Source of the DNA: Nitrosospira multiformis ATCC 25196
GTDB lineage: Bacteria > Pseudomonadota > Gammaproteobacteria > Burkholderiales > Nitrosomonadaceae
Assembly: GCF_000196355.1 (NCBI RefSeq)
Contig: NC_007614.1
Coordinates: 690,001 to 722,000 of the forward strand
Length of the DNA: 32,000 bases
Reading direction: 5' to 3'
The notes beneath the pieces were generated by a model. The model had not been told where the DNA came from. It was given only the letters and a program-made list of their open reading frames with translations, and did not search any database. The position numbers were made by a program, and so were the translations under genes. Of the stretch, positions 10,450-30,719 are shown piece by piece; within the stretch, counting starts at the first letter, position 1; each line of letters begins with the position of its first letter.

Positions 10450-10463
10450 ATCCAGGAATCCCC

Positions 10464-14883: not shown

Positions 14884-15129
14884 GACTGCCCCCCATCTTC
14901 TGTGTTGAGTTCGGCGCCCGTCGCCCCTCATGGGAGCATTTTACTCATGATAAAATAGGTTATCAACTGTAAAAATCCACGTAAACTCGTCCTCATTTCT
15001 ATCTTAAGTGAGTTCTTGCTGGGAAAACACGGATATTAGCTTGAGGAGGAAGGTTAATCATGCCTGATGGAAGTAAGCCTCAATAAGCGCTTAATTTTTT
15101 CGGGTACTTTATGAGATTCTTTCTTTTTT

Positions 15130-15601: not shown

Positions 15602-15617
15602 TGAGTCCTTAACCTAG
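15596..15617. repeat. IS terminal inverted repeat (right end)
   Basis: aattaatgagtccttaacctag is the inverted partner of 13486-13507. The transposase remnant's stop lies at or inside this repeat. Confidence 0.7.
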
Positions 15618-15619
15618 AT

Positions 15620-15916: not shown

Positions 15917-16087
15917 GGCGGCTCCTTTATTTAACTTTTAACTCACTTCATTCAGATGCATTTCTACTATGGATTACGAATTTGCGACGAAGGGACCGAC
16001 TTGAGTTTGCCGGGTGAATCCACTCCGCCCCCTTCATGAGTAATGCATTAAGGACTGATCCAGTGTGATTCAAAGAATCTCTGGCGA

Positions 16088-17563
16088 TCAAGGCTGGCCG
16101 GCTCCGGGCAGATTGAGGAACTCGCGCCGCGTCTTTGGTCCGTAGGTGAGGAAATGCGGCTGCGGGTGTTCGAGGTAAGCAAGCCGTTCGTGTGCAATGC
16201 GGTCGCGCCCGGTATATTTTTTTACTTCCTCCAGGCTGATCGAATAAACCCTGGCAGCATTGAGACCAAAAATCTTCGCCCGGAGCTGTGGAGTAATTTC
16301 CGGGTAGTCGTACCTTGCGCGTAATTCAGAGGCGATCTGAAAGGCGCGAAACGCCTGGATCTGGTCTTGCGGCGAGCCATACCAGATAGAATCCGTCCCC
16401 CACAGGACATTATCCTCCCCGCAATACTTCAGTAGCTTCCCCAACACGTGCGCTGCGGCTTCAGGGTTGCGCATCAGATATCGCCAGGTACTGCCGAGTT
16501 CGGCGTAAACATTCCTGTTGGGAGGAACATCATTGTCGATGAGTGAGCGGATCAAGGTATCAACGCCCTCATCTGCGCCCTGTCCCTGGAAGGGGCCCTC
16601 GGGGACACTTGTTACGAAGCCTGAGTGGTAGACCAGAAATGCAACATCAGGAAATCTTTTGGCTGCCACGCCGATGTCGGTACATTTGCTGTGCTCGTAG
16701 GATTGCCTGCCGAAGGGCAGGCCCTTGTGCACGCAGATTACTTTCACCCCGAGACTGCGCGCCTTCTCGATAAAGCGCGTTCCAGTTTCATCCGACAGAA
16801 AGTAGCCTTTTCCTTCGGGCCCGAATTGCGTGTAAGTCTTCCAGGCGGATACGCCCCAGCGGTCCTTCAACTCATCCATCCGCTCCAGGTCACCTTGCTG
16901 ATTGGGGTTGACACGTCCGTGCAGCAGCACGCGGTGTGTTCCTTCCATTCTGTCGACGATCCTGCGCACTGCATCCGCCTCCTGGATGGTAAGCGGCTCC
17001 GCATCGGGCCGCGATGGTACGAAAGAGAGCACCATCATATCCGTATCCGAGTCAAGGAACACGTCCTTGATGAACTCATCCGGTCCGAGGCACTGTAAAT
17101 AGCTATGTGAACCTGATTCCAATCCAAGGGCGCATTCGGTCTTGGGCATTTGGCTCAAAGGTTTTGCACCGGGAACAAGCTTTTGCAGCCACGCGCCTTT
17201 CGGGTTCACAAAGTGGCCTTGCACGTCAAAAATAAATTCGCCTTTATCGCCAATCTCCGCCTGGGCCAATGCAGGTTCGAGCGCGGCTTCCTTTGTCAGA
17301 TCGAAAAATCCGCCTGTCCTGCCTGCGGCCGCATTCGCGGCATTGAATGCAAGAAGGGTGGAAGCGGCATCGCAAGCGGAAATGAGAAAATGCCGCCGTG
17401 AAACTCCTGTGCGTTTTGCGTTTGTATCAGCCGCTTCGTGGGCGAGACGATTCGCGGCAAGATTTGCAGGCGATAACGGGACCGGCGCGAATTCTCCGTT
17501 GGAGGTCGTGTCGAGCTTGATCGGCAGGCGATTACCGTCGGGATCGAGCTGAACTGGGTTCAT
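16088..17563 (-). CDS. Amidohydrolase_2-like (TIM-barrel metal-dependent hydrolase) with internal twin-arginine-like motif
   Basis: 491 aa. SRRHFLISACDAASTLLAFNAANA is followed by a domain with HG..NP, VHKG and WGTDS patterns typical of PF04909-type amidohydrolases, as recalled. Confidence 0.75.
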   Translation of the reverse strand: MNPVQLDPDGNRLPIKLDTTSNGEFAPVPLSPANLAANRLAHEAADTNAKRTGVSRRHFLISACDAASTLLAFNAANAAAGRTGGFFDLTKEAALEPALAQAEIGDKGEFIFDVQGHFVNPKGAWLQKLVPGAKPLSQMPKTECALGLESGSHSYLQCLGPDEFIKDVFLDSDTDMMVLSFVPSRPDAEPLTIQEADAVRRIVDRMEGTHRVLLHGRVNPNQQGDLERMDELKDRWGVSAWKTYTQFGPEGKGYFLSDETGTRFIEKARSLGVKVICVHKGLPFGRQSYEHSKCTDIGVAAKRFPDVAFLVYHSGFVTSVPEGPFQGQGADEGVDTLIRSLIDNDVPPNRNVYAELGSTWRYLMRNPEAAAHVLGKLLKYCGEDNVLWGTDSIWYGSPQDQIQAFRAFQIASELRARYDYPEITPQLRAKIFGLNAARVYSISLEEVKKYTGRDRIAHERLAYLEHPQPHFLTYGPKTRREFLNLPGAGQP

Positions 17564-18054
17564 GGGGGGATGGATTCATGCGGACAGTTTCCCAAAAAGG
17601 AAAGTAAACATGGAATTTCACAAGTTGAGTCAGTCTGCCTCAACTTCAGGGTAGTACGTCAGATCGGATTTGGCAAAGAGATCCGCCCTCCCTTTCGTCG
17701 CCTCCCTTTCCGTGGTTGCGATCTGCGGTATCTTGATGGGGATATATTGTTGCTTCTTCAGGGTTTGATTTTCCCTTTGTTTCAGGTGCGATGCTATCGA
17801 GTTCATCGGATCAACCCAGCCAGTTGATCCCTCAATTCTCTTTTTCCGACAATTTTTCAATTGGATTCAGCAAGAACTTGCCTATGGGGCAGATGAACGG
17901 TTCTGCACGGGGGTATACGATTGACCCGGATAGCAGGCTACCGAGGTGGAGGTGCTCAAGCTCGCGGCAGCGATGAAGTTATTTCCGCGTGGATTGAGCA
18001 GATGAGTGAAGCGTAATCCGGGAGTCAGTGGGGTCAACTCTGGGAGAAGCCGAC

Positions 18055-18080: not shown

Positions 18081-18094
18081 GCCTTTCCTGAATA

Positions 18095-18275
18095 AAGTCC
18101 CCGCAAATGCCGTCAGGTCGTTTATCTTGAACCTTAAGGTTCAAGGTGGTCACTCGCCGGATGCATCAGGCACTTCCGCATGGGACGCGCACAACAGCAT
18201 CACTTTGGTTCGCAACCGGTTCTCAAAAAGTTGGTTCAAAGAATATAGACCTTGACAAACACCGCAGGGAACAAC
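18095..18275 (-). ncRNA. ssrS: 6S RNA
   Basis: It lies immediately downstream of zapA on the same strand, the conserved proteobacterial position. The minus strand reads 5' GUUCCCUGCGGUGUUUGUCAAGG ... CACCUUGAACCUUAAGGUUCAAGAUAAACGACCUGACGGCAUUUGCGGGGAC 3'. That parallels E. coli 6S (..CACCUUGAACCAAGGGUUCAAGGGUUACAGCCUGCGGCGGCAUCUCGGAGAUUC). The 5' and 3' ends pair to form the closing stem. Length is ~180 nt; the ends are accurate to about 5 nt. Confidence 0.7.
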
Positions 18276-18353
18276 TCTTATCACTTCCGCGGATATTCAG
18301 CTTAACCCGCAAATGCGACATCTGTTCAGTTGCTTCAAAGTTTGATTTCCTAT

Positions 18354-18668
18354 TTAAAACAGTTTGTCCTGCTCCGGCATGGCAGCATCGAGCATTGCCT
18401 GCATGTGATCGATTCTACGCCTAAATTCTTCCGTGTCAAAGCCTTCCTTGCTTCTTGCCTTGAGCAACTCATGGGTGATATTCAGGGCTGCCATGACAGT
18501 GATGCGCTCAGAGCCGAGTACTTTGCCGCTGTCCCTGATTTCGCGCATCTTCTTGTTGAGATAGGCTACCGCTTGCAGCAACCCCTCGCGATCTTCATCC
18601 GAGCAGCTCACCCTGAATTCACGCCCCATGATAGTGACATCCAGGGGCTTGCCTGTGCCTGTATTCAT
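18354..18668 (-). CDS. zapA: Cell division protein ZapA
   Basis: 104 aa from ATG 18668: LDVTIMGREFRVSCSDEDREGLLQAVAYLNKKMREIR......ERITVMAALNITHELL, a typical ZapA. The ORF-track N-terminal extension was rejected. The start overlaps the upstream gene's stop (ATGA). Confidence 0.9.
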   Translation of the reverse strand: MNTGTGKPLDVTIMGREFRVSCSDEDREGLLQAVAYLNKKMREIRDSGKVLGSERITVMAALNITHELLKARSKEGFDTEEFRRRIDHMQAMLDAAMPEQDKLF

Positions 18669-18868
18669 TCTTTGCTCTCGGGAATGCGCGACAAAAGAAC
18701 TTCGAGCTGTGAGGCAGCCGCACCTATTTTTTCCACCAATAGCCGGTTGTGGCTCGTAGTAACTGCCAGTTGCTGGCGCAACTGAATATTCTCCGTGCGC
18801 AGTTGCTGACACAAGCGTACGAATTGGGTGATTTTTTCTTCCAGAGTATCCAGTTCGGGTTCCATCAA
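18665..18868 (-). CDS. ZapB-like / TIGR02449-type small coiled-coil protein
   Basis: A 67-aa heptad-repeat protein (LEEKITQFVRLCQQLRTENIQLRQQL) that is translationally coupled to zapA. Confidence 0.6.
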   Translation of the reverse strand: MMEPELDTLEEKITQFVRLCQQLRTENIQLRQQLAVTTSHNRLLVEKIGAAASQLEVLLSRIPESKE

Positions 18869-19020
18869 GGCACTATAGTTTGGAAATCCTCAGTCAGTCA
18901 ACTACTAACCTGGTCTTTCGAATATGGCTCCAGGAAAGGTGTGGAATATATGAGACAGCTCAGCTTCCGGCAAGGGTTTTCAATCATTTCGCATGATTTA
19001 TTCTACGGTTCTGGTAGAAT

Positions 19021-19245
19021 GCCGCCTCGTTTGAGGTGCCTGATCGCTTCCGCGGTCGGGTTAAACGGGAACCAGGTCAGAGATCGATGAAGGTCTCCGG
19101 ATGCCTGGGCTGCCCCCGCAACGGTAAGCAGGCGTGGACGTATCAGGGAAGCTTCTCAAGGTTTCCTAATGCCACTGTGAATTCTTCAATTCATGGGAAG
19201 GCGATACGTCAAATCCTGCGAGCCCGGATACCGGCCTCGGATGCG
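19021..19245 (+). promoter_or_regulatory. Cobalamin (B12) riboswitch
   Basis: The conserved core elements appear in order: gttaaacGGGAAccaGGTcagA..., cctgGgCTGcCCCCGCAACGGTAAgc, GCCACTG...GGGAAGGC, and the B12-box-like gAGCCCGGATACCGGCC. This parallels the E. coli btuB leader recalled from memory. A possible extended -10 promoter (TGgTAGAAT, 19012-19020) lies just upstream. The element sits 5' of a TonB-dependent receptor. Confidence 0.85.
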
Positions 19246-19361
19246 TACGGACATATCGCGTGGGGCGGTATCCGATCGATATTTCTTTCGTTCGAAGCTC
19301 CCACGATATTTTCCTGTTTCCTTGTTCTCACGGCGGGGATGCATATTCCCGGGCAATTATC

Positions 19362-21428
19362 ATGGGTTTGTTTCGCAGGCATCTCTTGCCATGGATGTTT
19401 ATTTCCGTTCCTTCAGGGGCTCTTGCCGTATCCAGCGATCCGGCGGAGAGATTGCTCCCTGATGTCGTTGTCACAGCAACCCGCTTCAGCGAGTCCATCG
19501 ACAAACTGCCCAGCGGAGTTTCCATCGTCAATGCGGAACAGATCAGAAACAGCGCCGCTACGACTTTGCCGGAGTTGCTGCAACAACTGTCTGGCATACA
19601 CACGAGAAATGTCGATGGCAGCCCCGACCCACAGATCGATATACGCGGATTTGGTATCACCGGCGACCAGAACACCCTGGTTTTGCTGGATGGTCAACGC
19701 ATGAACGAAAATGAATTGACCGGTATCCGCTGGTCGACGATTCCTCTCGATACTATCGAACGCATCGAAGTATTGCACGGCAGCGGTAGCGTCGTTTATG
19801 GAGCAGGAGCCACCGGGGGTGTCATCAATATCGTTACACGCGCTGCCAAGCCGGGTCGCATATCGGGTACGGGGGGAGTTTCCTTCGGCAGCTACAGCGG
19901 CACGGAATTCAACGGAACGTTCAACGCGGCAGGAAACAACGTTGGGCTGGCGCTCACGGCCAATGCGTTGCGAACAGATAACTACCGCGTGAATAACGCG
20001 TTGCGTCAATCGAATCTGCAGGGCGATCTGCGTTACCTGTTCAGCAGCGGCAGGGCGTTGCTGAAGTTCGGACTGGATGATCAGAAGCTGGAACTCCCTG
20101 CCAATCGCACTGAAGCACAGTTGCAAACCGACCGGAAAGGCACCTCGACTCCTCGCGATTTCAGCACCCGCCAAGGTGCCTACGTCACACTGAGAGGAGA
20201 GAAAGAGACGGAATTCGGTGATCTTGCCGCGGACCTTTCATTTCGGGACAACCACCGTACCGCATTATTCGACGATTACAATCTGGACGGCTTCAACGCC
20301 AAAACATTCGTCAATTCCCGCTCAGACCAGTGGCTGTTCAACCCGAGGATGAAGCTGCCCTTTGCGGCTTTCGGCATGGAGCACGAACTGGTACTGGGCG
20401 TGAATTTCGAATGGTGGGATTATCGATCGAGACGGTTTACCGGACCGGAAACAGTACCAGGTTCGGCATCCGCCGATATCCCGAGAACGGATGTAGTGGC
20501 GACCCAGCTAAACCGTGCCATTTATTTTCAACACGCCTCCACTTTACCTAAAGGTACCGTTGTCAGCCTTGGAGGGCGACTGCAATGGGTAGACAACCGG
20601 GCGAATGACCGTTTCAATCCCGCTGTCTACGCCAGCGGCCGGCAGAGCCGTATGGTTTATGCCTATGATGCAGGTCTTCGCCAGCCTCTGGGGGAAGCTT
20701 TTTCGGCCTATGGCAGATTTGGGCGCAGTTTCCGGATAGCGACAGTGGACGAAAACTACAACCAGTTTGGCGGTCCAATGTTCGATTCCATAGTGAAGAT
20801 TCTCGAACCGCAAACTGCCCATACTGGGGAGCTCGGACTGGATTACAAGCAGAAGTCCCTACGTGCGCGCGCTTCGCTTTACCGCACCAACCTCAACAAT
20901 GAAATCAGCTTCATAAACATAGACCCATTCCTGTTTTTTGCCAACGTCAATCTGCCGCCCACGCGACGGCAAGGTTTCGAGCTGGAAGGTTCATGGACGG
21001 TAACGGGCGCACTCGATATATTCGGCAGCTATACGTTTATCGATGCACGCTTTCGGAAGGGAGACTTTGGCGGTGTGGATGTATCCGGAAATCTCGTTCC
21101 GCTGGTGCCGCGCCACAAGGTCTCAGCGGGTGGTACATACCGGTTGGGATCCAGTACCCGTGCGGCAGTAGTCATGAATTATGTAGGTGAACAGGTTTTC
21201 GATAACGATCAAGCCAACACCGCCACGGGTCGTATGCCGGATTATGTCACGGTAGATCTCAAGGTGACTCATCAGATGAGGAAACTGCTGTTGAGCATGG
21301 CGGTGAACAACCTGTTTGATGAAAAGTATTTTTCCTATGCCATTCGCAATTCAGCGGGTACGAGCTTCAGTGCGCTACCTGCCCGGGAACGCAACGTCTG
21401 GCTGACGGTAAAGTATCAATTCGACTGA
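19362..21428 (+). CDS. TonB-dependent outer-membrane receptor, BtuB-like by riboswitch context
   Basis: A signal peptide is followed by a TonB-box/plug start DVVVTATRFSE. Plug motifs are present (RGFG...TLVLLDG, IERIEVLHGSGSVVYG), followed by a long beta-barrel. The start at ATG 19362 is preferred over 19260. Confidence 0.9.
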   Translation: MGLFRRHLLPWMFISVPSGALAVSSDPAERLLPDVVVTATRFSESIDKLPSGVSIVNAEQIRNSAATTLPELLQQLSGIHTRNVDGSPDPQIDIRGFGITGDQNTLVLLDGQRMNENELTGIRWSTIPLDTIERIEVLHGSGSVVYGAGATGGVINIVTRAAKPGRISGTGGVSFGSYSGTEFNGTFNAAGNNVGLALTANALRTDNYRVNNALRQSNLQGDLRYLFSSGRALLKFGLDDQKLELPANRTEAQLQTDRKGTSTPRDFSTRQGAYVTLRGEKETEFGDLAADLSFRDNHRTALFDDYNLDGFNAKTFVNSRSDQWLFNPRMKLPFAAFGMEHELVLGVNFEWWDYRSRRFTGPETVPGSASADIPRTDVVATQLNRAIYFQHASTLPKGTVVSLGGRLQWVDNRANDRFNPAVYASGRQSRMVYAYDAGLRQPLGEAFSAYGRFGRSFRIATVDENYNQFGGPMFDSIVKILEPQTAHTGELGLDYKQKSLRARASLYRTNLNNEISFINIDPFLFFANVNLPPTRRQGFELEGSWTVTGALDIFGSYTFIDARFRKGDFGGVDVSGNLVPLVPRHKVSAGGTYRLGSSTRAAVVMNYVGEQVFDNDQANTATGRMPDYVTVDLKVTHQMRKLLLSMAVNNLFDEKYFSYAIRNSAGTSFSALPARERNVWLTVKYQFD

Positions 21429-21714: not shown

Positions 21715-23586
21715 ATGCGGCCTGTACGTCTCATGCAAAATACACAAAATACCGGCGCCCGACAGTTATGCCTGCGCCTGACGAGATACGTTGCGCCGTA
21801 CTGGGACGCGATCATCCTTGCAACAGGGTGCATGATCGCGACAGCGGCGACCGTTCCCATGCTGGCGGCGTTGATGCAGCCGACCATGGACGAAGTTATC
21901 GCGAACAGGAACCCCGAGTTGCTGCAACTCGTGCTTTTGGGAATCATCAGCTTGTTTGCAGTGCGCGCAGTAGCCGGACACCTCGCGACTTACGTACTCC
22001 ATTGGGCGGGCAGCAAACTGGCAGTGGATTTACTCTGCGAGATATTCGACAAGCTGCTCGTATTGCCGCATTCGTATTACGAATCCTGCCCCGGCAGCAA
22101 TCACATTTCGGTCGATCATGTCTCCAGGATAACATCGGATGCTCCGGAGGTAGCGCGCGCTTTTGTCAACGTGATGACGGTCATGATCAGAGACACATCC
22201 ACCGTCATTGGCTTGCTTGGCTGGATGTTTTATCTCAATTGGCCGCTTGCCCTGCTGATTTTGTTGATGTCATCGGTGATTCTGCTGGTCACGCAATTGC
22301 TTGGAGAGCGGCTGCGGGAAATGGGACGGGAAAGCGAGCGAGCGATAGAGGGTCTCACCCGGATTCTGAAGGGCGCTGCACTGAACTTCATGGTGGTCAA
22401 GCTCTATGGCGGTGAGCAGTATGAGAACCAGCGCATGAGGGAACAGGCGGAGGAGGCACGCCGATTTTTCATGAAGCGGGCTGCTGTTGCCTCTCTTTAT
22501 GTTCCCTTGATACAAACCATTGGTGCTGCCGCTATAGTCCTCACCCTTTATTTTGCCGCAAATGAAGCAGTCGCCAGTGAACTCACGACAGGAAGCTTTG
22601 CTTCTCTTATTACGGCCATTCTGCTGCTGATTGTTCCGGGGAGGCGAATAGCTGAAGTGGGAGGAACCTTCCAGCGCGGGCTGCTCGCGGCTGGAAGCCT
22701 GTTCTCGTTACTTGACGGGGAAGTGGAATCGGAGACAGGAACCGTCGTGATTCAGCGGGTGCGTGGAGAGCTGCAATTCGAGGAAGTCGGCTACGGCGAA
22801 CGTACAGAGCGTAATCCAGGCACCTCGTTAAAGGTTCGCTCCCTGGGGAATTCCGATCCTGCAGCAGTACTGAGACGTGGACTAAATTCCGGATTGCATG
22901 ATGTTACCTTGATCATTCAGCCGGGCGAGACGGTGGCGGTGGTTGGCTGCGCGGAAACCATGGATGTACTTACGTATATGGTGCCGCGTTTCCTTACTCC
23001 CACATCCGGGAGAATTCTCCTGGACGGACATGATCTCAGGAGCATCACGCTGGCGAGCTTGCGGGCCAACATTGCATTAGTATCTCCGCACACGACGCTG
23101 TTCAATGACACTGTCGCGGCGAATATTGCATATGGTGCAATGGGGCGGGCCACTGAAGCACGGATTACGTGGGCAGCTCGCGCTGCTCATGCATCCGAGT
23201 TCATCCGGAAGCTGCCGGATGGGTTGCAGACTATGGTCGGGGATGGCGGCGTAGAACTCCCCGTGAGTCAGCGGGTGCGCATCGCCGTTGCGCGGGCGCT
23301 TCTGAAAAATGCACCTCTATTGATCCTGAACGAGAAGCTGGGAATGCTCGAGCCGGATTCTGTGCCTCTTGTGCAGGCAGCATTCGATACCGTGATGCAA
23401 GGTCGTACCACGTTCGTTATTGCAGATCGTTTATCCACTCTGGAGAAAGCAGATCAGGTTGTCATGGTGGACAAGGAGCGCATTGTGGACAGGGGCTCAC
23501 ATCGGGAGCTGATGGCAAGAGATGGGGCTTATACCCGGTTGATCCGCAGAGTATTCGGTTCAAAAACTGCGGTAGCCGCCCGGTAA
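21715..23586 (+). CDS. MsbA-like ABC exporter half-transporter (TMD-NBD) with degenerate nucleotide-binding motifs
   Basis: The TMD is collinear with MsbA (six helices, ...YGGEQYENQR... region). The NBD scaffold is conserved (LDGHDLRSITLASLRANIALVSP..LFNDTVAANIAYG), but the Walker A, signature, Walker B and H-loop motifs are all replaced (see findings). The start is uncertain (21715 or 21733; no clear RBS). Confidence 0.88.
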   Translation: MRPVRLMQNTQNTGARQLCLRLTRYVAPYWDAIILATGCMIATAATVPMLAALMQPTMDEVIANRNPELLQLVLLGIISLFAVRAVAGHLATYVLHWAGSKLAVDLLCEIFDKLLVLPHSYYESCPGSNHISVDHVSRITSDAPEVARAFVNVMTVMIRDTSTVIGLLGWMFYLNWPLALLILLMSSVILLVTQLLGERLREMGRESERAIEGLTRILKGAALNFMVVKLYGGEQYENQRMREQAEEARRFFMKRAAVASLYVPLIQTIGAAAIVLTLYFAANEAVASELTTGSFASLITAILLLIVPGRRIAEVGGTFQRGLLAAGSLFSLLDGEVESETGTVVIQRVRGELQFEEVGYGERTERNPGTSLKVRSLGNSDPAAVLRRGLNSGLHDVTLIIQPGETVAVVGCAETMDVLTYMVPRFLTPTSGRILLDGHDLRSITLASLRANIALVSPHTTLFNDTVAANIAYGAMGRATEARITWAARAAHASEFIRKLPDGLQTMVGDGGVELPVSQRVRIAVARALLKNAPLLILNEKLGMLEPDSVPLVQAAFDTVMQGRTTFVIADRLSTLEKADQVVMVDKERIVDRGSHRELMARDGAYTRLIRRVFGSKTAVAAR

Positions 23587-23824
23587 ACTGCAACAGATCA
23601 TGGACGTTCTATCTGCCATGAGGCTTAGGCTCGGAACCCACTACGCCCAGAAATATTTCTGTCGGTATTTGTCAGCTCATAGATGCCCTGAGGGGAAAGC
23701 GCGAGCATCATCTTCTACATTGCCGGAGCCGTTTCCGTTCAATCAAGCGCGAGTACGGATACATCCAAGACGAGTTTCTGTCGGTGGCGCGGAAGATTGC
23801 ATGAGAAACTTTCATTGAGCTTGC

Positions 23825-23835
23825 GGGGGGGGGGG
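23825..23835. repeat. G11 homopolymer tract
   Basis: Eleven consecutive G in a non-coding or decayed region downstream of the ABC gene. Confidence 0.95.
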
Positions 23836-25309
23836 CAGTTGAAGTGAGCTTTATTCTGACTGAGGAAAGGACAACGTTTTCTGGCTGTCTTGAAGGAGGA
23901 AAAGCTGTAACTATTTAGTGTCGAGTTCCCAGTGGAGCCCAGGACTTTATCCAGATAACTGCGGCGCTTTTGCAAGGAACCGATTTGCGAGTCACTCTGG
24001 CTCTTCGTGAGTGGACAGGGGAAAATTTGCCATCTTCATTACGGCAGGCATGGCGAAATTAATGGAGTAATCCTGTCGGACGGCACGAGTGTCCGCTTTC
24101 CGCGCGAAGTATTACCAATTCGAGCCAATGTTAAAAGTCGGACAGAGCATTACGGCATCGGGCTACGGCACCAAAATCAATTCGCCCAAGCACTAGAGGC
24201 ACCCAGCTAGGCTTTTCAGGGCAACAGGATAGTCTCTCGTATTCCTCAATATCCCCGATGTGGAGCAAGGAATAGCTTGCCGATGTTGCGTCAGCCGAGA
24301 GTCAACCTAATATACCTGTCCCGCTTTCAAGAAGCTGGATTCAGAGCGTTAATATCTGTTCTGCATTAGGCTGCCGGTACCTCATCTTATGGCTCCCTTT
24401 AGGGTTTAGGGGCGTGGAAAGATTGCTACCTTTAACCGGCTATTGGCATGAGGGAAACCTTAAATTCGAAAAAGCATCCAGTCTGGTTAAATTTGTATAC
24501 GCATATTCGAACTTTCAGGCTGCACCCCACCTCACCGGCTTTAGTCGGTAGTTATTGGGCGAATTATTGGGCAAATACCCTATCAAACAAGAAAAACACG
24601 GTCCACTGACGTGGTGGAACTTATCATCATCTCGTGCCCCTCCATCTTGAATGCAAGTGAATACTGGGAACTGGAGAAGGTGAGGTTACGAACAGAACTT
24701 CAAACATCCTGGAGTTATTATGCGTTCAGCAGGCAAAAAATGTCCTGCTGCTGTTGAATTCTGTAAACAGAGTTTTATCTGCAGTACATGGAGAACAAGC
24801 AATCATTATTTTTCTCGAACATGGAACAGCATAGGTTTCAATGCTACAAGTTTTTACCGGTACACCTACAGCCAGGCCCTAGTTAAACCACTCTATTCAA
24901 GGCTTGGAGTTTTTCTACAGAGGAAGGGCCAGGAGTAGATTTCTGCTTTGTTATCCACCTCCGTTACTCCATTACCCTTCAATGTCAAAATCCTTATGGA
25001 GGGCTTTCGTGTTTATCAAGGATAGCGAATAGCGAAACAGCCTGTTTCTACGCTTACTCCAGCTGGGTGTGGATGCTCCTTGTTCGTTTCGCAACTGGTT
25101 TCTCCGGTCATAAGCTCCAACTAAGGACACGATCAGGAGCAACGCTACTGTGCTGCTACGAATACATGGGACAGGGATAGTCGCGTTTATTCCCGTACCT
25201 GAAGTCCGCGTGCCCATTAAATATGTTTATATCGAAAATCACAGATTGATTCGTCCCGATCAGGAAGAGGAAAGGACAGATAGAGCATGGATAAGAAAAA
25301 CGAAAAAGC

Positions 25310-27409
25310 ATGAAAAAAGAGTTTGAATTGAATTACTCACTCTCCGTGCTGAAAGCAGCGATAGAGGCAACGGTTGACGGCCTTCTGGTTACAGATAGAC
25401 GGGGCAAGGTGCTTTGCTACAACCAGCTTTACGTGAATATGTGGCCCATTCCAGGTGAACTCCTGGCTCATGCGAGACACCAGGCAATCCTGGGCTATTG
25501 TGCCGGGCAATTAAGAGATCCCGAGCAATTCCTGCGCTCAATCGAGGAAATTTATGCGACCTTGGCACCAGAAAGCTTTAATGTCTTTGAATTTCGCAAT
25601 GGCAGGGTATTTGAGCGATGTGCAAAAGTCAAAACTCTGGAAGGATCTGACATCGTGCTCGTTTGGAGCTTCAGGGACATTACTGAACGAAGACAGGGGG
25701 AGAGCTACAAAGCGCAGTTAGCGGCAATCGTCGAGTCCTCGAATGACGCCATCATTGTCAAGGATCTCAACGGCATTATTACCGGTTGGAATGCCGCGGC
25801 AGAAGAGCTTTTTGGATATCGTTCCGGCGAAATAATAGGCTCTTCCATATTGACGCTGATTCCGCCCGACCGCCTGGAGGAAGAGGACAGAATCATGAAC
25901 CTCGTCAAGAGCGGGAAACGCACGGACCATTTTGAAACCGTGCGATGGGGGAAGGGCAAGAAATCGATTGATGTCTCCGTCACGATATCCCCGGTGAAGG
26001 ATAGCGCCGGCAATATCATTGGTGCATCAAAGATTGCACGGGATATCACTCAGCGCAAGGAATCACAAGAACGTATCGAGTATCTCGCCCATTACGATTT
26101 GCTGACCGGCCTGCCCAACCGCGCGCTGTTCACCGACCGCATGAGGATCGCGATCGAGAACGCCAGCCGCTATGCCTTCCGGCTGGCATTACTATTCGTG
26201 GACCTCGATCGCTTCAAGCTGATCAACGATTCGCTTGGTCATGCAATCGGCGACAAGCTGCTCAAGGCAGTTGCAGAGCGCATGCAGTCCACGGTTCGCC
26301 AGGCGGATACAGTCAGTCGGCTGGGGGGGGATGAGTTCGTTGTCCTGCTGGGCCGGATTCATACAGCGACGGAGGCGGCGCGAGTTGCCGAGAAGCTTAT
26401 TGCAGTCTTGTCTCAGCCCTATCAAATAGAACAGCATGAACTCTTGCTGACCGCAAGCGTCGGGATCAGCATTTATCCGGATAGCGGTAAGGACGTCAAC
26501 AGCTTGATGCGCAATGCCGACGTTTCGATGTATTCGGCCAAGGGGCAGGGCAGGAACCGCTACCAGTTCTATTCTGAAGATTTGACTTCCGGCGCAGACG
26601 AGCGGCTCAGGCTGGAATACGACCTGCGCAGCGCTCTTGCGCGTGACGAAATTTTCCCGGTCTACCAGCCACAGCTGGAGCTTGCTACCGGACGCGTGGT
26701 AGGCGTGGAGGCGCTCATGCGCTGGAAGCACCCCGAGCGAGGGCTAGTCTCCCCTGCAAGCTTTATTCCCGTAGCCGAGGACAGCGGTTTGATTCTGTCT
26801 CTGGGGGAGCACATCCTGAGGGAATCCTGCCTGCAGGCACGCCAATGGCATGAGCAGCAGGGATTCGAGGGAACAATCGCGGTAAACGTTTCAGCAGTAC
26901 AATTCCGTCAGAATGATTTCACGGATGTTGTACTGCGCGCACTTGCAGACAGCGGTCTTTCGCCAGAATGCCTGGAACTCGAGTTGACCGAAAGTGTGGT
27001 GATGCATGGAGTGGAATCGGCTACACAGAAAATGTGCTTCCTGGAGTCCCGGGGTATAAAACTGGCTATTGACGATTTCGGTACCGGCTATTCCAGTTTG
27101 TCCTATTTGCGGCAATTTGCCATTGACCGGCTAAAAATAGATCGAAGCTTCGTTCGTGATCTCCCCCAGGACACTGATGCCAAAGCTATTATTCGCGCCA
27201 CTGTGGCAATGGGGCGCAGCCTTGGCTTACGTGTAATGGCGGAAGGTGTAGAGACGGAAGGGCAAGCGGAGTATTTGCGAAGCGTTCAATGCGATGAAAG
27301 CCAAGGCTATCTGTATGCAAGGCCAATGAGGCCAGATGATTTTGAAGCCTGGCTAAAGGGTAGGAAGCCAGATTTTAGGGGCTCGCGCTATCAAATGGCG
27401 CAATCGTAA
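25310..27409 (+). CDS. PAS-PAS-GGDEF-EAL signalling protein (diguanylate cyclase/phosphodiesterase)
   Basis: There are two PAS modules ending RDITERR and ARDITQRK. The GGDEF domain has an intact RLGGDEF and an RxxD I-site (RQAD) five residues upstream. The EAL domain has EALMRW, DDFGTGYSSL, KIDRSF, EGVET and QGY. Confidence 0.95.
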   Translation: MKKEFELNYSLSVLKAAIEATVDGLLVTDRRGKVLCYNQLYVNMWPIPGELLAHARHQAILGYCAGQLRDPEQFLRSIEEIYATLAPESFNVFEFRNGRVFERCAKVKTLEGSDIVLVWSFRDITERRQGESYKAQLAAIVESSNDAIIVKDLNGIITGWNAAAEELFGYRSGEIIGSSILTLIPPDRLEEEDRIMNLVKSGKRTDHFETVRWGKGKKSIDVSVTISPVKDSAGNIIGASKIARDITQRKESQERIEYLAHYDLLTGLPNRALFTDRMRIAIENASRYAFRLALLFVDLDRFKLINDSLGHAIGDKLLKAVAERMQSTVRQADTVSRLGGDEFVVLLGRIHTATEAARVAEKLIAVLSQPYQIEQHELLLTASVGISIYPDSGKDVNSLMRNADVSMYSAKGQGRNRYQFYSEDLTSGADERLRLEYDLRSALARDEIFPVYQPQLELATGRVVGVEALMRWKHPERGLVSPASFIPVAEDSGLILSLGEHILRESCLQARQWHEQQGFEGTIAVNVSAVQFRQNDFTDVVLRALADSGLSPECLELELTESVVMHGVESATQKMCFLESRGIKLAIDDFGTGYSSLSYLRQFAIDRLKIDRSFVRDLPQDTDAKAIIRATVAMGRSLGLRVMAEGVETEGQAEYLRSVQCDESQGYLYARPMRPDDFEAWLKGRKPDFRGSRYQMAQS

Positions 27410-27474: not shown

Positions 27475-29508
27475 CTATGCGATACGAGACTCGCGAACCT
27501 GGGAAACGGGGATAACTGATTCCGCGCTCACGTATTCCGGAACCCATCTGGGCAGCTCCCGCTTGACCTCTTCGTCGCTCAGGGCGGGATGCTCCTCAAG
27601 CCACGCCAGCAGAGCTGTCAGCCATTTTCTGTCTACCTGACGTGCTTGCGCGATACGCAATTTGGGGTGGGGCGTGGGAAGCGTATTTTCGTCATCCGCC
27701 AACAGTTCTTCGTAGAGTTTTTCGCCGGGGCGCAAGCCATTGTAAACAATTTTTATTTCATCCTCGCTCAATCCGGAAAGACGAATCAGATCTCGCGCAA
27801 GATCGGCGATTTTAATCGGTTCGCCCATATCCAGCACGAAAATTTCCCCCCCCCGCCGCTTGCCGCCCATCAAGCCGGCCTGTAGAACCAACTGTGCTGC
27901 CTCAGGTATGGACATGAAATAACGGGTGATTTCCGAGTGCGTTACCGTTATCGGTCCCCCTTTTTCAATCTGCTCCCTGAATTTGGGAATCACGCTGCCC
28001 GCACTGCCCAGCACATTACCGAAACGCACCATGACGAATCGTGGCTCCTGCCTCCTTTCAAGCCTGCTGCCCAGAACAATTTTGCCGGAGGCGTTTTCGG
28101 TGGGACTGTCAGGAGATGCAATCGACTGCTGTAACGCCTGGCATACCATTTCAGCCAGGCGTTTACTCGCGCCCATGACATTGGTCGGGTTGACGGCCTT
28201 GTCGGTCGAAATCAGGACGAATTTCTCCACCCCGTACCGGATGGCGGTTTGCGCCAGGACATAGGTTCCCCGCACGTTGTTCAGCACCGCCTGCCATGCA
28301 TTTTCCTGTTCCATCAGGGGCACATGCTTGTAGGCAGCCGCATGAAACACAATAGCCGGCCGGTATTGCAGGAATACCTGTGATAGCCGCGCTTCATCCT
28401 TGACATCGCCAATGGCGAATATCATGGGAATCTCTGGAAAATCGGCCTGGAATTCCTGCTCTATGCTGTACAGCGCAAATTCATTCAATTCAAACAGTAC
28501 CAGTTGAGCCGGTGCGAATTTGACGATCTGTCGGCATAACTCCGATCCAATCGAACCCCCCGCGCCTGTAACCAATACCGTTTTTCCCGTCAGTAAATCG
28601 TGCAGTCCATCGTTATCCAGCACGACAGGATCCCGCCCCAGCAAATCTTCAGGCTCGACTGTCCGGATTTGTGACACCTTGATGTTGCCGCTCACCAGGT
28701 CGTTATAGGAAGGGACGATCAAGGCCTTTACCCCTGCCGCTGCACACAGTTGCAAGGCTCGACGTCGGTCGCGCAGGAGGCGGTCGGGGCGGCGGCGATC
28801 AGAGTGGGTGCGATAGGATTTGCGGCGATCTGAAGCGGAGGAGGTGAGAGCGATAATGGCATGCGCGACACCCAGTTTCCGGGCTACCTCCGGCAGATCG
28901 TTGATGCGGCCCAGTACTTTGAATCCGTGCAGCATCAGCCCCCGCTTGGCCGGATCGTCGTCAAGGAAACCCGCGACGCGCCATTCCACATTGCGCGCCA
29001 GCTCTTTTACCAAGCCGACAGCAGCATCACTTGCTCCTATCACCAGAACGAGATTGCCTCCCGTTTTACTGCGGCCGTAAAGCCGGTGTTCTTTCCAGAA
29101 CCGGTAAGCGAGACGGCTGCTTCCCATGATGAACAGCAGCAGGATGGGGGCCAGTATCAGCACAGTTCTGGGGACACCGACCAGTATCTGCAACATGTAT
29201 AGCACCAATGGGACGGCTGCAGCCGAAGCGGATACAGCAAACAGGATGCGCCGCAAATCGGGCAGGCTTGCGTAATGCCAGAGTCCACGATACAGGCCAA
29301 AGAATAAGAAGGCTGCTGCGTGTATCGGGACCACCCACGGCAGAATCTCTTCCAAAGATGCCAGATAAACGAAGGGTATCTCGAAATTGAAGCGGAACAG
29401 ATAAGCCAGGGACCAGGCGATGGCGGCAGCTACAACATCATGCCCGAATGCAATAACCGTCCTTATGTTGAGTTTGGGCGCGGGCATGCTATGGACTATC
29501 CGGGGCAT
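27475..29508 (-). CDS. Membrane-anchored nucleotide-sugar 4,6-dehydratase (WbpM/PglF/CapD family polysaccharide biosynthesis protein)
   Basis: It has four N-terminal TM helices and two Rossmann regions (LVIGASDA; VLVTGAGGSIGSEL). Also present are FHAAAYKHVP, STDKAVNPTNVMGASKR, RFGNVLGSAGSV and GGEIFVLDMGEP. An alternative start lies at 29487. Confidence 0.9.
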   Translation of the reverse strand: MPRIVHSMPAPKLNIRTVIAFGHDVVAAAIAWSLAYLFRFNFEIPFVYLASLEEILPWVVPIHAAAFLFFGLYRGLWHYASLPDLRRILFAVSASAAAVPLVLYMLQILVGVPRTVLILAPILLLFIMGSSRLAYRFWKEHRLYGRSKTGGNLVLVIGASDAAVGLVKELARNVEWRVAGFLDDDPAKRGLMLHGFKVLGRINDLPEVARKLGVAHAIIALTSSASDRRKSYRTHSDRRRPDRLLRDRRRALQLCAAAGVKALIVPSYNDLVSGNIKVSQIRTVEPEDLLGRDPVVLDNDGLHDLLTGKTVLVTGAGGSIGSELCRQIVKFAPAQLVLFELNEFALYSIEQEFQADFPEIPMIFAIGDVKDEARLSQVFLQYRPAIVFHAAAYKHVPLMEQENAWQAVLNNVRGTYVLAQTAIRYGVEKFVLISTDKAVNPTNVMGASKRLAEMVCQALQQSIASPDSPTENASGKIVLGSRLERRQEPRFVMVRFGNVLGSAGSVIPKFREQIEKGGPITVTHSEITRYFMSIPEAAQLVLQAGLMGGKRRGGEIFVLDMGEPIKIADLARDLIRLSGLSEDEIKIVYNGLRPGEKLYEELLADDENTLPTPHPKLRIAQARQVDRKWLTALLAWLEEHPALSDEEVKRELPRWVPEYVSAESVIPVSQVRESRIA

Positions 29509-30481
29509 GCCGCAGACGGCGATCGCAAAGGCATATCATGACCAGATAAATTCCGATCCACGCGGTCACCATTCCGAACTGAACGTTCGTGTGCTGCTGA
29601 GTCGCCCAGAGGGCGCTGATGGCTGTGGCTGACATCAGAACGTAGCCGATCAGAGCCGTATTGCGATGACCCAGACCGCTTCGCACTAGGCGCTGGTAAT
29701 AATGCTCGCGATGCGCTCGCCAGATTTTTTCGCCTCGCAGTCCGCGTTTTATCAAGGTGACGGAAGCATCGACGATAAACGGCGAAAATACGAGCAAGGG
29801 AAACCATGGAGGCCAGCAGCCATTTATCCATCCCATCATACCTAATGCTGCAGCAAGGAACCCGAGCGGAATCGAGCCCGCGTCTCCCATGAAAATGCGT
29901 GCGGGATGAAAATTAAACAACAGAAAAGCTCCTGCTGCTGCGGCAATACAGAAGTTGGCGATTGCAAAGGCCTCGTTTCCGGAAATCCATGCTGTCGCTC
30001 CGTAGCAACTGAAACCGATCAGTGTCATGCCGCCTGCCAGTCCATCCGAACCGTCCATGAAATTATAGAGGTTGAGCATCCAGGTAATGCAGAGTGCGGC
30101 TGCTACGGCGACAAGCCAGCCGTAGGTGGCAGCAAGGGTTACGGCAGAAAACCAGATTCCAAGTCCTGTGTAAATGACGAGCCTTGGCCATACCGGCAGG
30201 CTGCGTACATCATCGGCGAAAGATATCGTTACCAGCAGCACAATCGCAACCCATATCGACACCGGCGGTTTTACCGGCAGAAACGTCCATGAGACGAAAA
30301 TCCCCGACATCAGCCCCAGGCCTCCCGTGCGGGGAACGGGACGAGTATGCAGCGATCGGGAATTCGGCTGGTCCAGGATTTTGAGAATATTCCCTTTGAT
30401 CAGACACGAAATCGTTCCTAGCGACACGGCAAACGCTATGAATGGCGGGATCAGATATAAAATCGGGGAGCCGGAATTCAT
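29489..30481 (-). CDS. Glycosyltransferase family 4 polyprenyl-phosphate sugar-1-phosphate transferase (WbpL/WecA/MraY-like)
   Basis: The protein is polytopic, with HTRPVPRTGG, NLYNFMDGSDGLAGG and FMGDAGS motifs. I chose the start at ATG 30481 (MNSGSPILY...). It lies tail-to-head with the dehydratase gene. Confidence 0.9.
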   Translation of the reverse strand: MNSGSPILYLIPPFIAFAVSLGTISCLIKGNILKILDQPNSRSLHTRPVPRTGGLGLMSGIFVSWTFLPVKPPVSIWVAIVLLVTISFADDVRSLPVWPRLVIYTGLGIWFSAVTLAATYGWLVAVAAALCITWMLNLYNFMDGSDGLAGGMTLIGFSCYGATAWISGNEAFAIANFCIAAAAGAFLLFNFHPARIFMGDAGSIPLGFLAAALGMMGWINGCWPPWFPLLVFSPFIVDASVTLIKRGLRGEKIWRAHREHYYQRLVRSGLGHRNTALIGYVLMSATAISALWATQQHTNVQFGMVTAWIGIYLVMICLCDRRLRHAPDSP

Positions 30482-30719
30482 GATCGGATTATAGCCTTGA
30501 TGACTTATGAGGCGCATGCATGCATACTTCAGCCCATGCCAGTCCATTGCGCGGGAGAATGAGGTAAATAATACCGATTTTCGATCTCCCCCCGCCAGCA
30601 CCTTATCTGCCCTGCACAGCCCGCTTCCAGTCCCAGATCAGGTTCGACATTGTCGGGAGAAGATTCTGAGAATGTCTGTACGAGTTCGCACATATCAGCG
30701 CAAATCGTAAAAAACATTA

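What the first reader, a model, noticed from the sequence alone, without database searches (positions are those of the whole stretch)
21715..23586. Intact MsbA-like ABC exporter in which every ATPase motif is degenerate (pseudo-NBD)
The protein aligns end to end with E. coli MsbA as I remember it, and the scaffold residues of the NBD are well kept. The catalytic positions are not kept:
- Walker A GRSGSGKST is replaced by GCAETMDVL.
- The Q-loop VSQ is VSP.
- The signature LSGGQRQR is LPVSQRVR.
- Walker B ILILDEATSALD is LLILNEKLGMLE.
- The switch histidine AHRLST is ADRLST.
- A ~20-aa insertion (ERTERNPGTSLKVRSLGNSDPAAVLRRGLNSG) precedes the Walker A position.

The 623-codon frame has no stop or frameshift, so selection is keeping the protein while ATP binding and hydrolysis look lost. 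Known heterodimeric exporters have one degenerate site. A subunit with all motifs lost on both faces is unusual. It suggests an ATP-independent exporter-fold facilitator, or an obligate regulatory or structural partner of another half-transporter.
Basis: partly seen in the sequence, partly recalled or inferred. Interest (0 to 1): 0.72.

Follow-up and report, generated by a model that had tools for sequence, protein, structure and literature searches.

The report
MsbA orthologue with dead ATPase motifs
In the soil ammonia oxidiser Nitrosospira, the gene at the conserved chromosomal position of msbA (the normally essential, ATP-driven lipid A flippase) keeps its fold and lipid A pocket under purifying selection but has lost its ATP-binding and hydrolysis motifs, so this lineage either moves lipid A without this protein's ATPase or has given the protein a new role.

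Summary
Window 21733-23586 (+) encodes an intact MsbA-type half-transporter. It has no Walker A, Q-loop Gln, LSGGQ, Walker B Asp, D-loop or H-loop His, and carries a ~25-aa disordered insert after the A-loop position.

It is not an error or a dying gene. Six independent Nitrosospira multiformis-clade sequences give dN/dS of about 0.19 overall, 0.14 in the NBD and about 1 in the insert.

It is the positional orthologue of canonical msbA. The block tauE-EVE-zapA-zapB-(B12 riboswitch-btuB)-msbA-(wbpM-GT4) is shared with Gallionella, Sulfuricella and Ferrigenium, where the gene is canonical.

All 90 Nitrosospira/Nitrosovibrio protein clusters carry the insert and show graded decay. Three keep all five motifs and ten keep none. 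Sister lineages decayed independently, and some have deleted the P-loop.

The lipid A ring is kept: R78, R/K148, D/E149, Q256 and K/R299 are 98-100% conserved.

My best reading is an MsbA-derived pseudo-ATPase that still handles lipid A without hydrolysing ATP itself. I could not test whether a canonical flippase exists elsewhere in these genomes. I found no prior report. I class it as a new variant of a known kind, interest about 0.74.

The parts
21733..23586 (+). CDS of the MsbA-derived pseudo-ATPase. It is 617 aa from the conserved ATG at 21733. Alternative starts are ATG 21715 (623 aa, the numbering used in this report) and GTG 21601.
   Evidence: Orthologues P0002/P0005 start at the Met that corresponds to 21733, and the codon at 21715 is Ile in L006/L007.
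21811..22632 (+). Transmembrane domain (ABC_membrane, six long helices). It carries the lipid A ring equivalents R84(=Ec R78), R159(=R148), D160(=E149), Q267(=Q256) and R310(=K299).
   Evidence: Pfam, AF2 model and ring conservation.
22087..22119 (+). ICL1 (first coupling-helix region). It holds a 5-residue insertion found only in the multiformis clade and is modelled with low confidence.
22801..22893 (+). Lineage-specific disordered insert after the A-loop position (RTERNPGTSLKVRSLGNSDPAAVLRRGLNSG).
   Evidence: pLDDT is about 30. dN/dS is 0.25-1.4. Length varies across the family and the insert is absent in the sister clade.
22891..23559 (+). Nucleotide-binding-domain scaffold (pseudo-NBD). 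It is well conserved apart from the catalytic motifs, and the X-loop TMVGDGG is kept.
   Evidence: NBD dN/dS is about 0.14.
22945..22971 (+). Walker A remnant GCAETMDVL. It has no Lys, no Ser/Thr, and is one residue shorter than the canonical P-loop.
23077..23094 (+). Q-loop remnant LVSPHT (Gln replaced by Pro).
23257..23280 (+). Signature remnant LPVSQRVR (LSGGQRQR in MsbA). Positions 482-484 still drift within the clade.
23317..23352 (+). Walker B and D-loop remnant LLILNEKLGMLE. Asp is replaced by Asn, the catalytic Glu is kept, and SALD is replaced by GMLE.
23419..23439 (+). H-loop remnant IADRLST (His replaced by Asp).
19017..21428 (+). Upstream context: cobalamin riboswitch (19017-19253) and a BtuB-like TonB-dependent receptor (19260-21428). 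No terminator-like site was detected before the msbA-like gene.
   Evidence: The same arrangement precedes canonical msbA in L001, L025 and L031.
18094..18865 (-). Conserved synteny anchor: zapB-like ORF (18674-18865), zapA (18354-18650) and 6S RNA (18094-18273).
27475..30601 (-). Downstream synteny anchor: WbpM/PglF-type polysaccharide dehydratase (27475-29508) and a family-4 glycosyltransferase (29489-30601).

Best explanation
SHOWN: This is the Nitrosospira orthologue of msbA, the lipid A-core flippase gene. It sits at the ancestral msbA position and has the MsbA fold. It keeps the MsbA lipid A-binding ring and the X-loop that couples NBD to TMD. Its NBD has become a pseudo-ATPase: the residues that bind and hydrolyse ATP and that form the ATP-sandwich dimer are gone, while the rest of the NBD and the TMD stay under purifying selection. 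The loss is graded across the genus and recurs in sister lineages. Selection on ATP hydrolysis was therefore relaxed in a common ancestor, but selection on the protein was not.

INFERRED (most likely mechanism): The protein still binds lipid A/LPS precursors in its chamber. It acts as a homodimer that lets them cross or leave the inner leaflet without hydrolysing ATP itself, as a facilitator or scramblase-like flippase. Direction would come from downstream ATP-driven extraction by LptB2FGC, from periplasmic modification, and/or from the proton gradient. The dead NBDs would serve as a structural and gating module. Remodelling of the D-loop (universal in the family) and of TMD residues (E41, P45, P68 and P176 lost in this clade) would be the changes that uncoupled transport from hydrolysis.
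For: Identity and fold:
- The best family is TIGR02203 MsbA and the best solved structures are MsbA.
- The AF2 model matches MsbA structures at TM 0.65-0.72.

Motif loss is shown.

Selection (NG86 dN/dS, six sequences):
- Whole protein 0.14-0.22, TMD about 0.18, NBD about 0.14, insert about 0.3-1.4.
- Neighbouring genes give 0.08-0.11.

Orthology:
- The order tauE-EVE-zapA-zapB-riboswitch-btuB-msbA-(wbpM-GT4) is shared with many Betaproteobacteria whose gene is canonical.
- In the NJ tree the family is monophyletic, nested in betaproteobacterial MsbA, and sister to canonical P0076/P0098.

Graded decay:
- Across 90 clusters, Walker A is intact in 5, the signature in 13, the Q-loop in 27, the H-loop in 31, Walker B in 72 and the SALD D-loop in 0.
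- All five motifs are intact in 3 clusters and none in 10.
- The TIGR02203 score falls from 779 through 639 and 604 to 515 and 472.
- Decay is independent in a no-insert sister clade, which includes P-loop deletions, and in lower-GC Nitrosomonadaceae-like lineages.

Site specificity: canonical-invariant NBD columns inside the motifs keep the canonical residue in 0.54 of family members, against 0.83 elsewhere in the NBD.

Substrate site: R78 100%, R/K148 100%, D/E149 100%, Q256 100%, K/R299 98%. These residues form the lipid A ring in MsbA (PMC8660845).

Precedents:
- One D-loop substitution turns TAP into a passive nucleotide-gated facilitator (PMC4242082).
- MsbA-MD, which lacks the NBD, is described as drug-transport active (PMC8660845).
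Against: - In E. coli, ATPase-deficient MsbA (deltaK382) and NBD-less MsbA do not rescue an msbA mutant, and lipid A flopping in proteoliposomes is ATP dependent (PMC8660845). A canonical MsbA therefore cannot work this way.
- No transport, binding or expression data exist for this protein.
- I could not establish that it is the only MsbA-type protein in Nitrosospira genomes. If a canonical flippase exists elsewhere, the case for flipping by this protein weakens.
- dN/dS is about twice that of neighbouring genes, so constraint is reduced.
- Strong conservation of the NBD scaffold and of the catalytic Glu (99%) is not explained by a purely passive pore.
- The facilitator precedent (the TAP D-loop mutant) still needs nucleotide binding, and this clade can hardly bind nucleotide.
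Confidence: 0.4

Rival explanations
1. Non-catalytic subunit or regulator. The protein pairs with a canonical ABCB half-transporter encoded elsewhere. That partner could be a true MsbA paralogue or a TIGR02204 'MsbA_rel' exporter, and it supplies the ATPase. The dead subunit supplies half of the lipid A chamber or modulates activity.
For: - Heterodimeric type IV exporters with a degenerate site are common (PMC7756269).
- In one related low-GC locus (L143), a fully canonical MsbA_rel (838.9 bits, above the 780.4 cut-off) lies 2.8 kb from a degenerate MsbA.
- The conserved NBD scaffold and X-loop suggest the NBD still takes part in a conformational cycle.
Against: - No ABC gene lies within about 10 kb of the gene in the window or in L005-L008, L037 or L146. 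Heterodimer partners are normally adjacent.
- In this clade both faces are dead: Walker A, Walker B Asp and H-loop on one face, and signature plus D-loop on the other. Any heterodimer would therefore have no consensus site.
- The signature is not preferentially kept in the family: it is intact in 13 of 90 clusters.
- The L143 MsbA_rel lacks R78, Q256 and K299 equivalents.
Confidence: 0.2
2. Repurposed remnant. Lipid A flipping was taken over by another transporter in an ancestor of these ammonia oxidisers. The old MsbA is kept for an ATP-independent job that still needs lipid A binding, for example sensing or sequestering LPS precursors, regulating lipid A synthesis, or a structural role.
For: - ATPase constraint was relaxed in several sister lineages at once, which points to a shared cause in an ancestor.
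- Evolution is accelerated relative to neighbours: the gene is 48% identical to P0076, while flanking genes of the same loci are 63-78% identical.
- dN/dS is twice that of neighbours.
- The ring residues are kept.
Against: - No replacement flippase was identified. No Nitrosospira-labelled canonical MsbA appears in three homologue lists of 120 hits each, although those lists were saturated.
- Retention of the full NBD and coupling elements for so long is more than a binding or sensing role obviously needs.
Confidence: 0.25
3. Inner-membrane component of vitamin B12 uptake. The gene follows a cobalamin riboswitch and btuB, and ABC-exporter-fold proteins can import cobalamin (Rv1819c/BacA; from my own knowledge).
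For: A riboswitch-btuB pair lies directly upstream with no detected terminator, and the arrangement is conserved.
Against: - The same adjacency holds for fully canonical msbA in Sulfuricella, Ferrigenium and L001, so it predates the decay.
- L146, L144 and L145 keep the degenerate gene without btuB.
- The conserved chamber residues are those that bind lipid A.
Confidence: 0.05
4. Decaying pseudogene, or a sequencing or assembly artefact in the motif region.
For: All motifs are lost and the TIGR02203 score is below the cut-off.
Against: - The same degenerate motifs occur in six independent assemblies and in 10 close protein clusters with no stops or frameshifts.
- dN/dS is about 0.19, and 0.14 in the NBD.
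- The gene is conserved over divergences down to about 50% identity across a genus.
Confidence: 0.03

Closest known systems
MsbA, the lipid A-core flippase (E. coli, Salmonella, V. cholerae; NCBIfam TIGR02203)
   Same: - Best sequence and fold match, aligned end to end.
- Six-helix type IV exporter TMD plus NBD.
- Lipid A ring residues kept (R78, R/K148, D/E149, Q256, K/R299).
- X-loop kept.
- Same chromosomal position as canonical msbA in related Betaproteobacteria.
   Different: - No Walker A, Q-loop Gln, LSGGQ, Walker B Asp, D-loop, H-loop His or A-loop Tyr.
- A 25-aa disordered insert in the NBD and a 5-aa insert in ICL1.
- Loss of E41, P45, P68 and P176 in the TMD.
- Score below the equivalog cut-off (515 against 602).
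Heterodimeric type IV ABC exporters with one degenerate nucleotide-binding site (TM287/288, TmrAB, BmrCD, PatAB, TAP1/2)
   Same: Catalytic motifs replaced in an otherwise conserved NBD, and a non-hydrolytic NBD retained by selection.
   Different: - Those keep one consensus site, with complementary degeneration in two adjacent genes.
- Here both faces of the same subunit are degenerate and no partner gene is adjacent.
- The catalytic Glu, which is usually the first residue to go, is the one kept.
TAP D-loop mutant (D674A), a passive nucleotide-gated facilitator (PMC4242082)
   Same: It shows that an ABC exporter can translocate substrate without ATP hydrolysis once the D-loop is altered. The D-loop is altered in every member of this family.
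   Different: It is an engineered mutant that still needs nucleotide binding. The natural protein here lacks the P-loop lysine altogether.
SbmA/BacA-type transporters and NBD-less MsbA-MD/LmrA-MD (from my own knowledge, and PMC8660845 for MsbA-MD)
   Same: An exporter-type membrane domain working without its own ATPase, driven by the proton gradient.
   Different: Those lack the NBD. Here the NBD scaffold is retained and is the most constrained part of the protein.
CFTR and SUR (ABC proteins repurposed as a channel and a regulator; from my own knowledge)
   Same: An ABC exporter fold used for something other than primary active transport.
   Different: Both still bind ATP, and one site hydrolyses it. 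They are eukaryotic full-length ABCC proteins.

Membership tests
MsbA (NCBIfam TIGR02203 equivalog) | Whole-protein score at or above the curated cut-off of 602 bits | tested here: not met
   The score is 514.7 bits. Family members range from 639 (P0050) to 472 (P0297), and canonical P0076 scores 779.
MsbA (NCBIfam TIGR02203 equivalog) | Type IV ABC exporter half-transporter architecture (six TM helices plus a C-terminal NBD) and the MsbA fold | tested here: met
   Pfam finds PF00664 and PF00005. The AF2 model has six long helices and an NBD. The top Foldseek hits are MsbA structures at TM 0.65-0.72.
MsbA (NCBIfam TIGR02203 equivalog) | Lipid A-binding ring of the central chamber (R78, R148, E149, Q256, K299 in E. 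coli; PMC8660845) | tested here: met
   The query has R, R, D, Q and R at these positions. Across the family they are 98-100% conserved as R, R/K, D/E, Q and K/R. D41/E41 is lost in this clade.
MsbA (NCBIfam TIGR02203 equivalog) | Orthology by gene position and phylogeny with canonical msbA | tested here: met
   Flanks are shared with canonical loci. The family is nested in betaproteobacterial MsbA in the NJ tree.
MsbA (NCBIfam TIGR02203 equivalog) | ATP-dependent lipid A flipping and essentiality | not testable with these tools
   This needs biochemistry and genetics.
ABC ATPase (PF00005) | Walker A G-x4-GK[ST], Q-loop Gln, signature LSGGQ, Walker B hhhhDE, D-loop SALD, H-loop His | tested here: not met
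   None is present except the Walker B Glu. The Pfam domain still scores 46.9 bits, above its 25-bit cut-off, because of the scaffold.
Heterodimeric exporter with one degenerate site | A partner half-transporter gene adjacent in an operon | tested here: not met
   There is no second ABC gene in the 32-kb window or within 10 kb in L005-L008, L037 or L146. The only case of a nearby canonical exporter is L143.
Heterodimeric exporter with one degenerate site | One face kept consensus (an intact signature and D-loop donated to the partner's Walker A/B) | tested here: not met
   The signature is LPVSQ and the D-loop is GMLE in this clade. The signature is intact in only 13 of 90 family clusters and the D-loop in none.
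Pseudogene | Stops or frameshifts in orthologues and dN/dS near 1 | tested here: not met
   There are no stops in six orthologous DNA sequences, and dN/dS is 0.14-0.22.
SbmA/BacA-like NBD-less transporters | Absence of an NBD | tested here: not met
   A full NBD scaffold is retained and constrained.

The most novel reading that the evidence does not exclude
Nitrosospira, and probably much of the Nitrosomonadaceae, has no ATP-hydrolysing MsbA at all. Its only lipid A flippase is this pseudo-ATPase. It would move lipid A-core across the inner membrane by facilitated or proton-coupled flipping, with LptB2FGC extraction as the sink. That would be a natural ATP-independent solution to a step thought to need ATP in Gram-negative bacteria that make LPS.
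Probability: 0.25. Interest if true: 0.9.

Novelty: new variant of a known kind. Interest (0 to 1): 0.74.

Why it matters
MsbA is a model ABC exporter and an antibiotic target. Its ATPase is required for the essential lipid A flip in E. coli.

This finding is a natural series from nearly canonical to P-loop-deleted orthologues, all still under selection and all keeping the lipid A chamber. It is a ready-made evolutionary experiment on three questions:
- What the MsbA membrane domain can do without ATP hydrolysis.
- Which changes uncouple transport from hydrolysis.
- What a dead NBD is kept for.

If no other flippase exists in these genomes, it would show that LPS export can be fed by an ATP-independent step. 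If one exists, this is a clear bacterial case of an ABC exporter turned pseudo-enzyme.

There is also a practical point. Annotation pipelines name some family members 'MsbA' and others 'ABC transporter transmembrane domain-containing protein', so metabolic reconstructions of ammonia oxidisers treat the same gene inconsistently.

Tried and rejected
1. Looking for a canonical MsbA in Nitrosospira.
- I ran three homologue searches, with the query, with canonical P0076 and with P0108. Every Nitrosospira- or Nitrosovibrio-labelled hit belonged to the degenerate family.
- The lists are capped at 120 and saturated by Gallionellaceae, so absence is not proven.

2. Literature.
- No paper holds both 'MsbA' and 'Nitrosospira'.
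- The eight papers with 'Nitrosomonas' and 'MsbA' look irrelevant from their titles and abstracts; I did not open them.
- Searches for Swiss-Prot-style names found nothing.
- Proteomics supplements of PMC5960693 have no MsbA entry.

3. Two MsbA copies in Ferrigenium kumadai. P0104 and P0107 are the same protein with different starts.

4. MsbA_rel (TIGR02204) next to a degenerate gene in L143 as the replacement flippase. It is canonical but lacks the R78, Q256 and K299 equivalents, and it was seen in only one locus.

5. B12-transport role from the riboswitch-btuB adjacency. The adjacency is older than the decay, and btuB is missing in some degenerate loci.

6. A hidden canonical Walker A or B elsewhere in the protein or in the insert. 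None was found.

7. The 1.7-kb gap downstream (23587-25309). It has no Pfam hits and only patchy non-coding conservation with other strains.

8. The AF2 model is only moderate (pLDDT 68.5), so I used it for the fold and for the disorder of the insert only.
Full report
**Observation**

The window holds an uninterrupted ORF on the + strand from 21601 (GTG) or 21715 (ATG) to 23586. Several searches place it with MsbA:
- Pfam finds the ABC exporter membrane domain (PF00664, 1.6e-38) and a weak ABC_tran hit (46.9 bits).
- The best NCBIfam family is the MsbA equivalog TIGR02203 at 514.7 bits, below its curated cut-off of 602.
- The best solved relatives are MsbA chains from V. cholerae, E. coli and Salmonella (E about 1e-100), aligned end to end.

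- Walker A GRSGSGKST is GCAETMDV(L), one residue shorter.
- Q-loop Gln is Pro.
- LSGGQRQR is LPVSQRVR.
- ILILDEATSALD is LLILNEKLGMLE.
- H-loop His is Asp.
- The A-loop Tyr is lost as well.

Only the Walker B catalytic Glu survives. No G-x4-GK[ST], hhhhDE or SGG occurs anywhere else in the protein.

The insert is about 25 residues (aa 363-393). It lies after the first NBD strand. The ATG at 21715 is Ile in the orthologues, so the conserved start is ATG 21733, giving 617 aa.

**Organism and distribution**

The closest proteins are from Nitrosospira multiformis (91%). Every named member of the family is Nitrosospira or Nitrosovibrio.

All 90 protein clusters of this family carry an insert at the same site and show graded degeneration:

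| Motif | Clusters with it intact (of 90) |
|---|---|
| Walker A | 5 |
| Signature | 13 |
| Q-loop Gln | 27 |
| H-loop His | 31 |
| Walker B | 72 |
| D-loop SALD | 0 |

Three clusters keep all five motifs. Ten keep none, and these are the query's clade.

The replacements differ between subclades. Examples for Walker A are GFSGCGKAA, GLSERDKAT, GFRGSAAA, DSSGAKAT and GCAETMDV. This looks like independent drift after a common relaxation. The TIGR02203 score falls stepwise from 779 (canonical P0076) through 639, 621, 604 and 560 to 515 (the query) and 472.

**Not an artefact or a pseudogene**

I compared six independent DNA sequences of the multiformis clade: the window, two isolate genomes (L006, L007) and three metagenome contigs (L086-L088). 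None has a stop.

| Region or gene | dN/dS (NG86) |
|---|---|
| Whole protein | 0.14-0.22 |
| TMD | about 0.18 |
| NBD | about 0.14 |
| Insert | 0.25-1.4 |
| Flanking genes in the same genomes | 0.08-0.11 |

The protein is therefore under clear, somewhat relaxed, purifying selection. The insert is close to neutral. The AF2 model agrees that the insert is disordered (pLDDT about 30), while the rest has the MsbA fold (Foldseek TM 0.65-0.72 to MsbA structures).

**Positional orthologue of msbA**

The gene order tauE-EVE-zapA-zapB-like-(cobalamin riboswitch-btuB)-msbA, often followed by wbpM and a family-4 glycosyltransferase, is found in Gallionella, Sulfuricella, Ferrigenium sp. UT4, Pelomicrobium and many Burkholderiales MAGs. 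In all of these the gene has every canonical motif. The same order holds in Nitrosospira and Nitrosovibrio, where the gene is degenerate.

A neighbour-joining tree places the degenerate family as one clade nested inside betaproteobacterial MsbA. Its sister is a pair of canonical metagenomic proteins (P0076/P0098) that share the synteny, and P0076 already has a short insert at the same site.

The gene evolves much faster than its neighbours. It is 48% identical to P0076, against 63-78% for the flanking genes of the same two loci.

**Wider decay**

- A sister clade without the insert includes an NCBI 'Nitrosospira sp.' MAG protein, MCX7183931. It is degenerate too, and several members have deleted the P-loop altogether (536-561 aa).
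- A 43% GC 'Nitrosomonadaceae bacterium' lineage with the same btuB-msbA-wbpM order has GSSDDSKNV and H-loop Arg.
- The all-against-all representative search shows more diverged MsbA-type proteins with no recognisable motifs at loci of 38-45% GC, and one at a locus of 64% GC. Two of them share the wbpM-GT4 flank, and one shares zapA-zapB-...-wbpM-GT4-SDF.
- I could not name the taxa of these more diverged lineages.

**What is kept and what is lost**

I looked at NBD columns that are invariant in 127 canonical relatives. Columns inside the ATP-site and D-loop motifs keep the canonical residue in 0.54 of family members. Other NBD columns keep it in 0.83, with a median of 0.93. The Mann-Whitney p is about 1e-5, but the sequences are related, so that value is only indicative.

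The X-loop, the QR.R part of the signature helix and the catalytic Glu stay near 100%.

In the membrane domain, the ring that binds the lipid A phosphates and glucosamines in MsbA (PMC8660845) is retained: R78 100%, R/K148 100%, D/E149 100%, Q256 100%, K/R299 98%. The insert clade has specifically lost E41, the partner of R78 in the outward-facing state, and three conserved prolines (P45, P68, P176).

**Interpretation**

Shown:
- This is an msbA orthologue whose NBD has become a pseudo-ATPase.
- The fold, the coupling elements and the lipid A chamber remain under selection.

Inferred:
- The protein still binds lipid A-type substrates and works without hydrolysing ATP itself.
- The most economical mechanism is a facilitator-like flippase. 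Its direction would be set by ATP-driven extraction by LptB2FGC, by periplasmic modification, or by the proton gradient.

Precedents:
- A single D-loop substitution makes TAP a passive facilitator (PMC4242082).
- NBD-less MsbA is reported as drug-transport active (PMC8660845).

Against:
- In E. coli, ATPase-dead or NBD-less MsbA cannot replace MsbA, and lipid A flopping is ATP dependent. The Nitrosospira protein would therefore need a remodelled conformational landscape.

**Rivals**

- Non-catalytic partner of a canonical half-transporter. This is weakened because no ABC gene is adjacent. Both faces of the NBD are dead in this clade, and the signature is not preferentially conserved. One related locus (L143) does carry a canonical TIGR02204 MsbA_rel 2.8 kb away, but that protein lacks most of the lipid A ring.
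- Repurposed remnant after functional replacement. This stays open because I could not search whole genomes.
- B12-uptake role. The upstream riboswitch-btuB suggests it, but it is unlikely. The adjacency also holds for canonical msbA, and several degenerate loci lack btuB.
- Pseudogene or artefact. This is excluded.

**Limits**

- The decisive unknown is whether these genomes encode another competent lipid A flippase.
- Three capped homologue lists showed no Nitrosospira-labelled canonical MsbA, but they were saturated by Gallionellaceae sequences of near-equal score.
- The genome scan was truncated.
- The tree is distance-based.
- dN/dS comes from one shallow clade.
- The structural model is of moderate confidence.
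- I found no publication describing this: no paper combines 'MsbA' with 'Nitrosospira'. The review of degenerate sites in type I exporters gave no hit for 'two degenerate' and, in the passages I read, describes only transporters with a single degenerate site.

**Verdict**

This is a new variant of a known kind, an MsbA-derived pseudo-ATPase fixed across a bacterial genus and probably beyond. It is of high interest to ABC-transporter and envelope-biogenesis specialists.

Noticed in passing
window 19017-19253 (+) and 19260-21428 (+): A cobalamin riboswitch (89 bits) lies directly upstream of a BtuB-like TonB-dependent receptor, which is immediately followed by the msbA-like gene with no terminator-like site between them. 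The same riboswitch-btuB-msbA order precedes canonical msbA in L001, L025 (Sulfuricella) and L031 (Ferrigenium UT4).
   Followed up: partly
window 18094-18273 (-), 18354-18650 (-), 18674-18865 (-): 6S RNA (70.4 bits) lies downstream of zapA, preceded by a small ZapB-like coiled-coil ORF. This zapB-zapA-ssrS unit is the conserved left anchor of the msbA locus across Betaproteobacteria.
   Followed up: partly
window about 5200-18050: About 13 kb separates EVE/tauE (3860-5189) from zapA. These genes are adjacent in most other Betaproteobacteria examined. The block holds an animal-haem-peroxidase homologue (5262-6932), a PGA_cap protein (8828-10189), an Amidohydro_2 protein (16088-17563), and two long ORFs with no Pfam match (10464-11831 and 13643-14413).
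   Followed up: no
window 23587-27409: A PAS-GGDEF-EAL gene (25310-27409) and 1.7 kb of apparently non-coding, lower-GC sequence lie between the msbA-like gene and wbpM. The non-coding stretch is only patchily conserved with other strains. This occurs only in the multiformis clade (also L007). In Nitrosovibrio Nv4 and Nsp11, wbpM follows directly.
   Followed up: partly
The Met at 21733 is conserved and is the start of the 617-aa orthologues.
   Followed up: yes
L143 1173-2942 (+) and 5730-7394 (+): In a 38% GC assembly (GCA_021774055.1), a fully canonical TIGR02204 'MsbA_rel' exporter (838.9 bits) lies 2.8 kb from a strongly degenerate MsbA-type gene (P0558). The canonical protein lacks the R78, Q256 and K299 equivalents.
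   Followed up: partly
P0293-P0302 (no-insert sister clade); L037 10001-11740: A sister clade of the family has no insert but is also degenerate. Several members have the whole P-loop deleted ('DSA'/'DST' in place of GxSGSGKTT) and the H-loop region scrambled, yet they keep R78, R148 and K299.
   Followed up: partly
L037 (CAMDAX010000007.1) versus L005 (OCMZ01000001.1): A lake MAG labelled 'Nitrosovibrio sp. Nv4' carries the no-insert type of the gene. The Nv4 isolate genome carries the insert type, which is 45% versus 56% identical to the query. The MAG's organism label looks unreliable, as do 'Bordetella parapertussis' and 'Streptomycetaceae' labels on other MAG loci in the same scan.
   Followed up: no
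L146 (GCA_900119085.1, FPIQ01000004.1) 9439-16339: An isolate assembly with 64% local GC has zapA-zapB-msbA-like-wbpM-GT4-SDF with no btuB. Its MsbA-type protein is degenerate and divergent (P0428: GASAADKNI, LTGGQRLR, IVLVNE). I did not identify the organism.
   Followed up: no
family-wide, E. coli positions 485-488 and 506: The catalytic Glu (99%) and Q485, R486 and R488 of the signature helix (96-100%) stay conserved, although the residues they normally work with are gone. Q487 is replaced by Leu in essentially all members of both degenerate Nitrosospira clades.
   Followed up: no
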